Assembly: GCF_009914755.1 (NCBI RefSeq)
Contig: NC_060926.1
DNA length: 64,000 nt
Source of the DNA: the human T2T-CHM13v2.0 reference genome, Homo sapiens
Reading direction: 5' to 3' (one strand)
Shown: positions 8,414 through 61,600 of the stretch, in pieces
Layout of the letters: each line of letters starts with the position of its first letter
How positions within the stretch are numbered: position 1 is the first letter of the stretch
Position numbers and translations under genes: made by a program
Notes under the pieces: generated by a model
The model's input: only the letters and a program-made list of their open reading frames with translations
The model's database searches: none
What the model was told of the DNA's origin: nothing

Positions 8414-8795
8414 TGATATGGTGTGCCTGTGTCTCCACCCAAATCTCTTCTGGAACTGTAGTTCCCATAATCCCACTGTGTTGTGAGAGCGACCCAGTGG
8501 GAGGTAATTGAATCATGGGTGGTTACATCCATGCTGTTCTTGTGATAGTGAGTGAGTTCTCATGAGACCTGATAGTTTTATAAGTGGTATCCCTCTATCC
8601 CCGGCCTTTGCTCTGCATTTCTCCTTGCTGCCACCATGTGAAGAAGGACATGTTTGCTTCCCCTTCTGCCATGATTGTGAGTTTCCTGAGGCCTCACCAG
8701 CCATGCTGAACTGTGAGTCAATTAAGCCTCTTTCCTTTATGAATTACACAGTCTCGGGTATGTCTTTATTAGCAGCATGAGAACAGACTAATACA
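8414..8795 (+). mobile_element. THE1 solo LTR (MaLR)
   Basis: TGATATGG...GACTAATACA termini; 5-bp TSD ctctt/ccctt. Confidence 0.93.
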
Positions 8796-23354: not shown

Positions 23355-23723
23355 TGTATTAGTCTGTTTTCATGCTACTGATGAAGACATACCTGAGACT
23401 GGGTAATTTATAAAGAAAAAGAGATTTAATGGACTCACAGTTCCACATGGCTGGGGAGGCCTCACAGTCATGGCAGAGGACGAAAAGCACATCTTACATG
23501 GTGGCAGGCAAGAGAAAATGAGAGCCGAGAGAAAATGAGAGCCAAATGAAAAGGGAAACCCTTTATAAAACCATCAGACTTATTCACAAGCACGAGAACA
23601 GTATGGGGGAAGCCACCTCCATAATTCAATTATCTCCCACCAGGTCCCTCCCACAACACATGGTAATTATGGGAGCTACAGTTCAACATGAGATTTGGGT
23701 GGGGACACAGCCAAACTATATCA
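23355..23723 (-). mobile_element. THE1 solo LTR
   Basis: tgtattagtctg...ccaaactatatca; perfect 5-bp TSD gccag. Confidence 0.95.
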
Positions 23724-36812: not shown

Positions 36813-37335
36813 TGATACTGTTAGGCTTTGTGTCCCCAGCTAAATCTCATCTTGAATTGTAATCCCCACAATCCCCATGTGTCAAGGGAGAGACCAGGTG
36901 GAGGTAATGGCCTAAATGCAGCCACCAATTAAGAAAGCATTTGAGTTCTTTAATTGAATCATGGAGGTGGTTTCCCCCATGCTGTTATCGTGATAGTGAG
37001 TTCATTCTTACGTTATTGCGGGATCTGATGGTTTTATAAAGGGCTCTTCCTCCTTTGCTTAGCACTTCTTCCTGTCGCTTTGCGAGGAATGTGTCTTGCT
37101 TTCCCCTTCACCTTCCACCATGATTGTAAGTTTCCTGGGTGCTCCCAACCACGCTGAACTGTGAGTCAACTAAATCTCTTTCTTTTATAAATTCCCCAGT
37201 CTGGGGCAGTTCTTTATAGCAGTATGAAAATGGACTAATACAGTAAATTGGTTCTACAGGGAGTGGTGTTCTTCTTTAAAGATACCCGAAAATGTGAAAG
37301 CAACTTTGGAACTTGGTAACAGGCAGAGGATGGAA
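36813..37335 (+). mobile_element. THE1/MST LTR (36813-37242) plus truncated internal sequence
   Basis: tgatactgttaggctttgtgtcccc...tggactaataca, then gtaaattgg...gcaactttggaacttggtaacaggcagagg. Confidence 0.92.
36909..36948 (+). pseudogene. MT-RNR2: Micro-NUMT: ~40-bp fragment of mitochondrial 16S rRNA gene
   Basis: ggcctaaatgcagccaccaattaagaaagcatttgagttc versus recalled human mt 16S ggcctaaaagcagccaccaattaagaaagcgttcaagctc (35/40); interrupts the LTR motif gaggtaat/tgaatcatg. Confidence 0.85.
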
Positions 37336-58000: not shown

Positions 58001-58613
58001 TGCTGAATTGCTGAAGTGCAATAAGGATTTTTTTTTTTTTTTGCAATAAAACTGACTGGGTTTATATCCTCCTGAAGTGGACAGTTTGGGGAAGGGACAC
58101 ATGGAAGAGAAATGACAAATGGAAGAGGCCCTGAAATGCAGGGAAATGTCTGAAGAAGGGAAAGTGATACATTTTTTTGTGGGAGAACTGGAGATTGACC
58201 CCTTTAGTTTGCAGGGAGATCAGCTGGTGCTGGACTCTGGCCTGAGGACATCTGAAGTCAGGAAATGGCTGGAGCTTCCTCTTTCTGCAGGCAAGAAGGA
58301 AGGGATGATTCCTGAGCCCATAAGCTATATTCAGAAAATACCCTGGACAAGAGTGGGTAAGTTTCCATAGGAGGAGTAGATGCTAAGGATAGTAGTTATG
58401 TTAGGTCCTGCCCAAAAGGCTGTCTGAAAAAGGGAGACCCAAGCAGAAAGAGAGTATGTAGGGAATACTACTGAAGGTTGCAGCTGAGTGGCTGCCAAGA
58501 AATGTTAGGCAGAGAGTACATAAGACATGTCAAGGTTCTTAGCAGAATTAGCTTCACAGAAGGCACAAAACTGTGCCCCTGAAGAAAGAATGAGCATTAC
58601 ACACCTGTATCAC

Positions 58614-61600
58614 TGTGTTAGACCATTCTTGCATTGTTGTAAATAAATGCTTGAGGCTGGGTAATTTATAAAGAAAAGAGATTTAATCGGCTCATGGTTC
58701 TGCAGGCTTTACAGGAAGTGTGGTGCCAGCATATGCTTCTCATGAGGCCTCAGGAAGCTTGTAATCGTGGTGTAAGGTGATGGGGAGCCAGCATGTCAAT
58801 TGATGACAGTGGGAGAAAGAGTGGGAGGTGTCACAACTTTCTAAACAACCAGATCTCATGAGGCTCAACTATCATGAGAACAGCATCAATACATTCATGA
58901 GGAATCCACTCCCATGACCCAAACACCTCCTATCAGGCCCCACCTCCATCAATGGGGATTACATTTCAATATGAGATTTTGTGGGGACAGACAATCAAAC
59001 TATATCATGCTGCCTCTGGCACCTCAAATTGAATGCCCTTCTCACCTTGCAAAATATAATTATCCTCTGCCAATAGTCCCCAAAATTCTTAACTCATTGT
59101 AGCCTCAAGTCCAAAGTCATAAGTCTCATCTGAGACTCATCTCCTTCCACCTATGAGCCTGTAAAATCAGGACAAGTTATTTATTCCCAAGATAAAATGG
59201 TAGTACAGGCATTGGGTAAACATTACTATTCGGAAAGGGAGAAATTGGCCAAAAGAAAAGGTCATTAGTCCCCACACAAGTCTGAAACTCAGCATGGCAG
59301 TCATTAAATCTTAAACCTCCAAAATAATCTCCTTCAACTCCATGTCCCACATCTAGGGGACACTGGTGCAAAGTGTGGGCTCCTAAGGCCTTGAGCAGCT
59401 CTGCCTCTGTGGCTTTGCTTGGTATTCTGATGGTCTAGAGTTGAGTGTCTGTTTTCCAGGTATAGGGTTCAAGCTGCTGATGAATCTACCATTCTGGGGT
59501 CTGGAGGGTGGCACTCACCTTCTTCAGCTCCATTAGGCAGTTCCCCAGTGGTGACTGTGTGGCAGCCCCAACACCATACTTCCTCTTGTCATTGCCCTAG
59601 TATAGATTATCTGTGAGGGCTCTATCTTTGCAGCAGGCTTCTACTTGGGCACCCAGGCTTTCTCATACAGCCTCTGAAATCTAGATGGAAGCCACCAAAC
59701 CTCCTTCACCCTCGCATTCTATGTGTTTTACACCATGTGGAAGCCACCAAGGCTTATGGCTTGTGCCTTCTGGAGGGTTGACCTGAGCTGTACCTGGGGC
59801 TCTTTAAGCCACAGCTGTAGCTAGAGCAGCCAGGTTGTGGGGAGCAATGTCCCAAGGCTGAGCAGGACAGGGGTTTCCTAGGCCTGTTCCCCAAAACCAT
59901 TCTTTCCTTCTAGCCTTCTGGGCCTGTGATGGGAGGGGCTGTCTCTAAGATCTCTGAAATGCTTTTGAGGGCTTTTTCCCATTGTTTTGGACATTAGCAC
60001 TTTGCTCCCTTTTTAGTAATGCTAATCTCTCTAGCAATTGGTAATTCTGCAGCCTGCTTGGATTCTGTCTGTGCCACATGGCCAGGCTGCAAATTTTCCA
60101 AATTTTTATGCTCTGCTTTGCCGTTAATTATAAGTTTCAAATTTCAGTCATTTCTTTGCTTCTCTGATTATATGCTGTTAGAAGTAGCCAAGCCACATCA
60201 TGAACGCTTTGCTGCTTAGGAATTTCTTCCATCAGATACCATAAGTGATTACCTTTAAGTTCAAACTTCTCTGATCCCTAGGGTGTGAACACAATGCAGC
60301 CAAGTTCTTTGCTAGAGCATAACATGAGTGACCCTTATTCCAGTTCTCAATGACGTCTTCATTTCTACCTGAGACCTGGTCAACCAGGCTTTTACTATCT
60401 GTATTTCTATCAGTATTTTGGTCACAATCATTTAACCAGTCTCTAAGAAGTTCCAAACTTTCCCTCATCTTCCTGTCTTCTTCTGAGCCCTCCAAACTCT
60501 TCCAACCTTTTACTCTTACCCATTTCCAAGGTCACTTCCACATTTTCAGGTATCTTTAGAGGAACACCCCACTCCTCAGTACCAATTTTCTGTATTAGAC
60601 CATTCTTGTATTGCTATGAAGAAATACCTAAGGCTGAATAATTTATAAAAGATGTTTAATTGGCATGGGCAAAGACTTCATGACTAAAACAACAAAAGCA
60701 ATGGCAACAGAAGCCAAAATAGACAAAAAGGGTCTAATTAAACGAAAGAGCTTCTGCACAGCAAAAAAAAACTATCATCAGAGTGAACAGGCAACCTACA
60801 GAATGGGAGAAAATCTTTGTAATCTACCCATCTGACAAAGGGCTAATATCCAGAATCTACAAAGAACTTAAATTTACAAGAAAACATGAAACAGTGTGCA
60901 AAGGATATGAACAGACACATCTCAAAAGAAGACATTTATGCAGTCAACAGATGTATGGAAAAAATGCTGATCATCAGTGGTCATTAGAGAAATGCAAATC
61001 AAAACTACAATGAGATACCATCTCACGCCAGTTAGAATGATGATCATTAAAAAGTCAGGAAACAACAGATCTTGGAGAGGATGTGCACAAATAGGAACGC
61101 TTTTACACTGTTGGTGGGGGTGTAAATTACTTCAAGCAAGGTGGAAGACAGTGTGGCAATTCCTCAGATCTAGAACTAGAAATACCATTTGACCCAGCAA
61201 TCCTATTACTGGGTATATACCCAAAGGATTATAAATCATGCTGCTATAAAGACACATGCACACGTTTATTGTGGCACTATTCACAATAGCAAAGACTTGG
61301 GACCAACCCAAATGTCCATCAGTGATAGACTGGATTAAGAAAATGTGGCACATATACACCATGGAATACTATGCAGCCATAAAAAAGGATGAGTTCGTGT
61401 CCTTTACAGGGACATGGATGAAACTAGAAACCATCATTCTAAGCAAACTGTCACAAGGACAGAAAACCAAACACCACATGTTCTCATTCATACGTAGGAG
61501 TTGAACGATGAGAACATGTGGACACAAGGTGGGGAACATCACACACCAAGGCCTGTTGGGGGCTGGGGGATGGATAGCATTAGGAGAAATACCTAATGTA

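What the first reader, a model, noticed from the sequence alone, without database searches (positions are those of the whole stretch)
36905..36954. 40-bp mitochondrial 16S rRNA micro-NUMT captured inside a THE1/MST LTR
Seen: the LTR motif gaggtaattgaatcatg (intact in the related LTR at ~8502-8518) is split here as gaggtaat-[42 nt]-taattgaatcatg, with taat on both sides. Established (recalled, not searched): the insert matches human mt 16S ggcctaaaagcagccaccaattaagaaagcgttcaagctc at 35/40. mtDNA fragments are captured at double-strand breaks by end joining. Inference: an old micro-NUMT that postdates the LTR, preserves an ancestral primate mt sequence, and is probably below NUMT catalogue thresholds and hidden by repeat masking.
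Basis: partly seen in the sequence, partly recalled or inferred. Interest (0 to 1): 0.75.

Follow-up and report, generated by a model that had tools for sequence, protein, structure and literature searches.

The report
Tiny mitochondrial 16S fragment in LTR
A 42-base piece of DNA, 40 bases of it copied from the mitochondrial 16S rRNA gene, was patched long ago into a broken retrotransposon LTR on human chromosome 2; it is a genuine but ordinary event, too small and too decayed for the two catalogues I could check.

Summary
Window 36909-36950 is a 42-nt insertion in a THE1-type MaLR LTR (family name recalled). All 39 other scored copies of the LTR family lack it. It is flanked by a 4-bp TAAT duplication of a target that is single in relatives.

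The first 40 nt match human mtDNA 2173-2212, inside 16S rRNA, at 35/40. The mtDNA reference line is printed in a supplement of PMC3228558. The E-value is 1.5e-10 against one mitogenome-sized space. The core 21-mer occurs 13 times in the 3.1-Gb genome: this insert, 10 in long 16S-like copies and 2 in other short 16S fragments. Three of the long copies were checked with Rfam and show the 12S-tRNA-16S order.

The anatomy (target duplication, 2 untemplated bases, no poly-A) is textbook NUMT capture at a staggered break by end joining (PMC2567098). It is absent from RHNumtS.2 and, as far as the held text shows, from a 2026 CHM13-coordinate map, although a 43-47-bp chr15 twin is listed.

A suspected donor hot spot did not survive controls. 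This is a new, small member of a well-known kind, of low interest.

The parts
36909..36948 (+). 40 nt homologous to mitochondrial 16S rRNA gene, mt 2173-2212, in rRNA-sense orientation on the + strand
   Evidence: 35/40 to J01415.2 / recent NUMT copies. 33-41-nt HSPs to seven panel NUMTs. Core 21-mer 36918-36938 is exact.
36949..36950 (+). TT, two bases that match neither the mt sequence (AA in 29 of the 33 compared copies, TT in none) nor the LTR. They are either untemplated filler or later mutation.
   Evidence: table; gap limits (query 95-136)
36905..36908 (+). Left copy of the 4-bp target duplication TAAT. The T at 36908 also matches the older mt form (..TTGGCC..), so 1 nt of microhomology is possible.
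36951..36954 (+). Right copy of the 4-bp target duplication TAAT
   Evidence: subject pieces overlap by 4 nt in relatives
36820..37243 (+). Host element: a MaLR LTR of THE1 type (name recalled, not tested), TG...CA ends, followed on the right by MaLR-internal-like sequence (recalled)
   Evidence: 6387 first-look relatives; 81-83% identity over q137-430 to the nearest copies; sequence read

Best explanation
A staggered double-strand break with 4-nt cohesive ends (TAAT) arose in an already resident THE1-type LTR on chromosome 2. Before the ends were rejoined, a roughly 40-nt fragment of mitochondrial DNA from the 16S rRNA gene (mt 2173-2212) was captured as filler by non-homologous end joining. 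Both overhangs were filled in, giving the TAAT duplication, and two extra bases (TT) were added at the right junction. The patch then decayed neutrally. It has 5 differences from modern human mtDNA: 4 transitions, one of them at the only CpG, and 1 transversion.

Shown:
- the insertion and its exact limits;
- the duplication;
- the mt 16S identity;
- that the insert is private to this LTR copy.

Inferred:
- the break geometry;
- end joining as the mechanism;
- DNA rather than RNA as donor;
- old age and fixation.

No function is expected. The site is intronic in lncRNA LINC01317 according to the hub's annotation.
For: - Insert limits and duplication: (39 of 39 other scored LTR copies lack it; 4-nt overlap of the subject pieces).
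- mt identity: the 21-mer has 13 exact genomic places and 0 for the reversed control. Ten are in long 16S-like copies and 2 in other short 16S fragments.
- Rfam on the three long copies tested (L004, L006, L009) finds a tRNA followed by LSU_rRNA_bacteria (E down to 6e-65) in all three. SSU_rRNA_bacteria (E 7e-72 and 1e-63) precedes them in L006 and L009, while in L004 the upstream stretch is Alu-like. The 21-mer lies inside the LSU hit.
- The J01415.2 line in PMC3228558 supplementary file 2 fixes the coordinates. With that offset the Rfam tRNA falls at mt 1602-1670, where I recall tRNA-Val to be.
- E-value 1.5e-10.
- Mechanism: PMC2567098 (passages read) reports target duplications of 1-11 nt in 17 of 71 primate numt integrations, attributes them to cohesive breaks filled in around the mt fragment, and reports untemplated additions.
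- None of the other 36 places that match the 21-mer with up to 2 mismatches (37 in all, the window's own included) sits in this LTR context, as judged from the flanks printed for 21 of them; the other 15 were placed by their alignment to long 16S copies or by coordinate.
Against: - The true mitochondrial genome is not held here: G000 has 24 contigs and no chrM. The mt identity therefore rests on NUMT proxies plus 50 nt of reference printed in a paper's supplement.
- The orthologous empty site was not seen.
- Two nuclear NUMT copies (L030 at chr2:212.25 Mb and L065 on chrX) match slightly better (37/42) than recent mt-like copies (35/42). A nuclear template is therefore not excluded.
- DNA and RNA donors cannot be told apart from the sequence.
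- The age rests on 5 substitutions only.
Confidence: 0.85

Rival explanations
1. The donor was not mtDNA but a fragment of 16S rRNA, or cDNA made from it, used in RNA-templated or RT-assisted break repair.
For: - 16S rRNA is a very abundant mitochondrial transcript (general knowledge).
- The insert is in rRNA-sense orientation and lies wholly inside the rRNA.
- At least four other short fragments (about 37-70 nt) from the same stretch exist elsewhere in the genome: L011, L013, L056, L057.
Against: - There is no poly-A, no L1-type target and no RT signature.
- A control block (mt about 2003-2062) collects a similar number of short fragments: 4, of 45-107 nt. The clustering therefore looks like better detectability of conserved blocks.
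- Sequence alone cannot tell RNA from DNA.
Confidence: 0.07
2. The 40 nt were copied from a pre-existing nuclear NUMT by templated insertion or ectopic conversion, not from the organelle.
For: - At least 33 long nuclear copies cover this stretch.
- The best matches are nuclear copies L030 (chr2:212.25 Mb) and L065, both at 37/42, against 35/42 for recent mt-like copies.
Against: - The 2-nt advantage is explained by states shared by many old copies (A at the decayed CpG, T at mt 2206), which are ancestral or parallel changes.
- L030 has C where the insert has T (mt 2177), and no copy shares the insert's private bases.
- The paper read on numt integration treats mtDNA itself as the filler captured at breaks (PMC2567098).
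Confidence: 0.06
3. The insert is chance similarity, or a segment native to an LTR subfamily.
For: None found.
Against: - E-value 1.5e-10.
- The reversed 21-mer control gives 0 hits.
- 39 of 39 other scored LTR copies lack the segment.
- No other genomic place with the 21-mer lies in this LTR.
Confidence: 0.01

Closest known systems
Fixed human NUMTs as catalogued in RHNumtS.2 (PMC3228558) and the 2026 pangenome NUMT map (PMC13179385). The nearest twin is HSA_NumtS_491 / numt_263, at chr15:64862773-64862818 in CHM13 coordinates.
   Same: Both are fragments of the same mt stretch. The twin is listed as mt 2173/4-2216/9 and the insert is mt 2173-2212. The twin is of the same size class (43-47 bp as listed) and also lies inside a repeat (an Alu).
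   Different: The chr15 copy is 91-95% identical to modern mtDNA and is listed. The window's copy is 87.5% identical and is not listed in either table as far as I could see. By my alignment to older NUMT forms the chr15 fragment runs about 20 nt further than listed, to about 67 nt.
Numt integration by NHEJ with target-sequence duplication (Hazkani-Covo and Covo 2008, PMC2567098)
   Same: The insert shows a short duplication of the chromosomal target on both sides of the mt fragment, no deletion of the target, and a few untemplated bases at one junction.
   Different: Their set was 90 recent human and chimpanzee numts with observable empty sites. Here the empty state is inferred from paralogous LTR copies, not from an orthologue.
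Short mtDNA-like segments of 28-70 bp discussed for T2T-CHM13 (Tao et al. 2023, PMC10671835)
   Same: The paper states that NUMTs of 28-70 bp are probably missed because of BLAST E-value limits. This insert is an instance.
   Different: I could not see their table, because the stored zip is cut. I cannot say whether they list this site.

Membership tests
NUMT (nuclear copy of mitochondrial DNA) | Significant sequence similarity to the species' or lineage's mtDNA | tested here: met
   35/40 to mt 2173-2212. E 1.5e-10 in a mitogenome-sized space. Paralogy to copies with 12S-tRNA-16S order.
NUMT (nuclear copy of mitochondrial DNA) | Embedded in nuclear chromosomal sequence, not an assembly contaminant | tested here: met
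   Both flanks continue one LTR without loss of a base. The assembly is T2T-CHM13 chr2 according to the hub.
NUMT (nuclear copy of mitochondrial DNA) | Pre-insertion (empty) site demonstrable | tested here: inconclusive
   The empty state is shown only in paralogous LTR copies (39 of 39 scored; two in the window). Orthologous primate loci cannot be reached with these tools.
NUMT (nuclear copy of mitochondrial DNA) | Donor is the organelle genome rather than another nuclear copy | tested here: inconclusive
   No nuclear copy is clearly better: 37/42 against 35/42. 40 nt cannot decide.
NHEJ filler-DNA capture | Junctions with 0-few nt of microhomology, optional target duplication of 1-11 nt or untemplated bases, no poly-A | tested here: met
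   4-bp TAAT duplication, at most 1 nt of microhomology at the left junction, TT at the right junction, no A-tail. Criteria taken from PMC2567098.
L1-mediated retrocopy | 3' poly-A, target duplication typically of 7-20 bp (recalled), TT/AAAA-like target | tested here: not met
   No A-run on either strand of 36909-36950, and the duplication is only 4 bp.
THE1-type MaLR LTR (host element) | Member of a high-copy LTR family with TG...CA ends | tested here: met
   6387 first-look candidates, 39 scored relatives at 73-83% identity. Ends read. The subfamily name THE1 is recalled from the motif, not tested against Dfam or RepeatMasker.

The most novel reading that the evidence does not exclude
The conserved 16S block around mt 2158-2243 may be a preferred donor of very short nuclear insertions. 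Besides this one, at least four independent fragments of about 37-70 nt centred on the same 21-mer sit at unrelated places: chr15:64.86 Mb, chr20:9.21 Mb, chr5:100.31 Mb and chr6:76.33 Mb, with two further borderline cases. They come from mt lineages of different age. This could reflect a stable 16S rRNA or DNA fragment that reaches the nucleus more often than others, and a large hidden population of micro-NUMTs that preserve dated snapshots of ancestral mt rRNA.
Probability: 0.1. Interest if true: 0.5.

Novelty: new member of a known kind. Interest (0 to 1): 0.2.

Why it matters
The practical value is small.
- It adds one uncatalogued 16S-like patch to the list of nuclear sequences that can confuse short-amplicon, cell-free or ancient mtDNA work.
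- It is a clean example of a naturally occurring 4-nt staggered chromosomal break preserved by filler capture.
- Together with its twins, it shows that E-value-limited catalogues miss decayed NUMTs of about 40 nt even when they list better-preserved ones of the same size.

It does not open a new question.

Tried and rejected
**1. Donor hot-spot idea.**
- I searched the 21-mer with up to 2 mismatches, which gave 37 places.
- I did the same with three control 21-mers from equally or better conserved 16S blocks: 43, 29 and 37 places.
- Places outside long NUMTs were fetched and aligned to a panel of 28 long copies.
- Solid short fragments (110 nt or less, containing the 21-mer) at the test site number 5, including the index case (41, about 67, 41, about 37 and about 50 nt), plus 2 borderline.
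- Controls gave 0 (plus 2 borderline), 3 (70, 85, 107 nt) and 0 (plus 2 borderline).
- Tile searches of 261 nt added a fourth short hit (45 nt) at the second control block and one 90-nt hit in the third tile.
- One control block therefore clusters as much as the test site, and the test site was chosen because of the index case. I do not claim a hot spot.
- The whole-16S query could not serve as a control, because only 40 of 140 candidates are scored.

**2. Other tools on the long copies.**
- ARAGORN found no tRNA in 5 long NUMT loci. Rfam's tRNA model did find one.
- ORF listing under code 2 found no ND1 piece in L004 or L009. The NUMT in L009 ends at about 16S position 1302.

**3. Apparent common left breakpoint at chr2:143.5 Mb (L002).** This is the same NUMT split by a later insertion of about 1.15 kb (RHNumtS.2 blocks).

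**4. Partner 3' LTR to date the element.** None was found in the window.

**5. Catalogue look-ups.**
- The Tao 2023 table is not readable because the zip is cut.
- For the 2026 map, only the held part of a cut file was searched.

**6. Unavailable resources.**
No multiple alignment of LTR copies was made, and the argument uses the coordinates of the BLAST table instead.

Full report
**What is in the sequence.**
- The window reads ggaggTAAT / ggcctaaatgcagccaccaattaagaaagcatttgagttctt / TAATtgaatcatgg across 36900-36963.
- The insert is 36909-36950 (42 nt), and TAAT stands on both sides (36905-08 and 36951-54).
- The same LTR motif is uninterrupted at 8501-8517, and with 2 mismatches at 23620-23636 on the minus strand.
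- The 41-mer of the insert occurs once in the window, even with 3 mismatches allowed.

**The 42 nt are an insertion private to this LTR copy.**
- A whole-genome search with window 36815-37245 gave 6387 first-look candidates. Forty were scored, one of them the query itself.
- In all 39 others, query positions 95-136 (window 36909-36950) have no counterpart.
- In the single-HSP rows the subject span is at least 41 nt shorter than the query span.
- In the split rows the alignment stops at q88-94 and resumes at q136-140.
- In two of the split pairs the two subject pieces overlap by exactly 4 nt (C4:104166954-104166957; C3:32060619-32060622). That is what a 4-bp duplication of the target predicts.
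- The window's own relative at 23584-23709 shows the same 4-nt overlap.
- Identity to the nearest relatives over q137-430 is 81-83%, so the LTR is old.
- The name THE1 is my recollection of that family's motif. It was not tested against a repeat library.
- No partner 3' LTR was found in the window.

**The insert is mitochondrial 16S rRNA sequence.**
- The genome held has 24 contigs and no chrM, so I used two routes.
- First route, nuclear copies:
  - The core 21-mer (36918-36938) has 13 exact places in 3.1 Gb and none for the reversed control.
  - Ten of the other 12 lie in long copies that align to one another over up to 2.3 kb.
  - On three of these long copies (L004, L006, L009) Rfam finds a tRNA and then LSU_rRNA_bacteria (E down to 6e-65), in that order on one strand.
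  - In L006 and L009 these are preceded by SSU_rRNA_bacteria (E 7e-72 and 1e-63). In L004 the upstream stretch gives Alu-type hits instead.
  - The 21-mer lies inside the LSU hit, about 512 nt into it. That is the vertebrate mitochondrial 12S-tRNA-16S arrangement.
- Second route, a printed reference:
  - Supplementary file 2 of Simone et al. 2011 (PMC3228558) prints the human mtDNA reference J01415.2 for positions 2161-2210 in an alignment.
  - Against it the insert starts at mt 2173 and differs at mt 2181 (A>T), 2203 (G>A, the G of the only CpG), 2206 (C>T), 2207 (A>G) and 2210 (C>T).
- Positions 2211-2212 agree with the recent NUMT copies.
  - With the same offset (mt = position in reversed L009 + 681), the Rfam tRNA falls at mt 1602-1670, where I recall tRNA-Val to be annotated.
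- Significance and window context:
  - BLAST gives E 1.5e-10 in a mitogenome-sized search space. A binomial bound gives 5e-12 to 3e-7.
  - Against a panel of seven 12S-16S copies of different age, nothing else in the 64-kb window matches at E < 0.1. Only 15-29-nt hits at E 0.12-0.43 appear.

**Junctions and mechanism.**
- Homology to mtDNA ends at 36948.
- The next two bases (TT) match neither mtDNA (AA in 29 of the 33 compared copies, TT in none) nor the LTR.
- At the left junction the T at 36908 also matches the older mt form, so at most 1 nt of microhomology is possible.
- There is no poly-A on either strand.
- Hazkani-Covo and Covo 2008 (PMC2567098; passages read) describe exactly this class:
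  - 17 of 71 primate numt integrations carry target duplications of 1-11 nt, explained as cohesive break ends filled in on either side of the captured fragment;
  - untemplated additions also occur.
- I therefore read the site as a staggered break with 4-nt TAAT overhangs, repaired by end joining with an mtDNA fragment as filler.
- The break geometry and the pathway are inferences from anatomy. What made the break is unknown; a topoisomerase-II-type 4-nt stagger is only a thought.

**Donor and age.**
- I compared the 42 nt with 33 long nuclear copies ordered by their identity to the youngest copy.
- Recent copies (96-100%) match at 35/42. The best old copies (L030 at chr2:212.25 Mb and L065) match at 37/42.
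- The two extra matches are states shared by many old copies (A at the decayed CpG, T at mt 2206). No copy shares the insert's private bases.
- There is no clearly better nuclear donor, but 40 nt cannot exclude one, nor separate DNA from RNA donors.
- Relative to the most favourable ancestral reading the insert carries about 4 changes in 40 nt. That is compatible with tens of millions of years, but with very wide error.
- The insert is younger than the LTR's integration. Nothing more precise can be said without primate orthologues.

**Catalogues.**
- RHNumtS.2 (PMC3228558, supplementary file 1):
  - It lists no NumtS between hg18 chr2:33,846,097 and 40,865,601.
  - The entry at 33,846,042 is a different 16S piece, mt 1763-1818.
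  - It does list a 43-bp fragment of the same mt stretch on chr15 (HSA_NumtS_491, mt 2174-2216). This is my locus L011.
- The 2026 pangenome map (PMC13179385):
  - It uses CHM13 coordinates and lists that chr15 fragment as numt_263, chrM:2173-2219.
  - No coordinate beginning 340128 or 340129 occurs in the held text. One of its files is cut in storage.
- Tao et al. 2023 (PMC10671835):
  - They used E < 1e-4 and a minimum above 28 bp.
  - They state that NUMTs of 28-70 bp are probably under-detected.
  - Their table is not readable here.
- My estimate for this insert in a 16.6 kb x 3.1 Gb search is E of about 0.01. That is above their cut-off.

**A side question: is this mt stretch a hot spot?**
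- The 21-mer with up to 2 mismatches has 37 places.
- Outside long NUMTs, and besides the window, four are solid short fragments:
  - chr15 L011, about 67 nt, inside an Alu;
  - chr20 L013, 41 nt, 100% identical to a recent copy;
  - chr5 L056, about 37 nt;
  - chr6 L057, about 50 nt.
- Two more are borderline (L061, L054) and two are 20-21-nt chance-level hits.
- Three control 21-mers from equally conserved 16S blocks gave 0, 3 and 0 solid short fragments.
- Tile searches added a fourth at the second control block and showed that short hits there also pile up on the conserved core.
- One control behaves like the test site, and the test site was picked because of its index case. Better detectability of old fragments in conserved blocks is therefore the simpler reading.
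- I keep a real donor preference only as the novel case, at about 10%.

**Verdict.** This is an old, very short NUMT captured in a THE1-type LTR, with a textbook end-joining signature, and it is missing from the catalogues I could check. It is a new member of a well-known kind and of low general interest.

Noticed in passing
L013 (G000:C20:9211886-9211926): Another micro-NUMT of the same 16S stretch, 41 nt and 100% identical to a recent NUMT copy (L016). It is followed directly by a second copy of an 11-nt piece of itself (ttcaagctcaa), which looks like a small templated duplication at the junction.
   Followed up: partly
L011 (G000:C15:64862773-~64862840): A 16S fragment lies inside an Alu, where it takes the place of the Alu's middle part. 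It is catalogued as 43-47 bp (HSA_NumtS_491 / numt_263). Aligned to older NUMT forms, it seems to run about 20 nt further, to about 67 nt.
   Followed up: partly
L056 (G000:C5:~100310200-100310240) and L057 (G000:C6:~76328515-76328565): Two more short fragments (about 37 and about 50 nt) of the same 16S block, both of the older mt sequence type. I did not check whether they are catalogued.
   Followed up: no
G000:C14:17627483-17627530, C5:119648182-237, C3:169009829-921, C11:133911665-709: Four short 16S fragments (45-107 nt) all overlap one other conserved block (about mt 2003-2062). Short NUMT-like hits therefore pile up on conserved rRNA cores, probably through detection bias.
   Followed up: partly
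L002/L042 (G000:C2:143537015-143539771): A long NUMT is split near mt 2156/2167 by a later insertion of about 1.15 kb. At first sight this mimicked a shared breakpoint with the window's insert.
   Followed up: yes
window 8420-8795 (+), 23355-23709 (-), 58612-58989 (-), 60590-60652 (-): Further diverged copies or pieces of the same LTR family lie in the window. None carries the insert.
   Followed up: partly
outside the window (hg18 chr2:33,846,042-33,846,097, RHNumtS.2 HSA_NumtS_050): The nearest catalogued NUMT is also a short 16S piece (mt 1763-1818, 56 bp, 98%). By my rough coordinate conversion it lies some 150-200 kb upstream of the window. This is probably coincidence.
   Followed up: no
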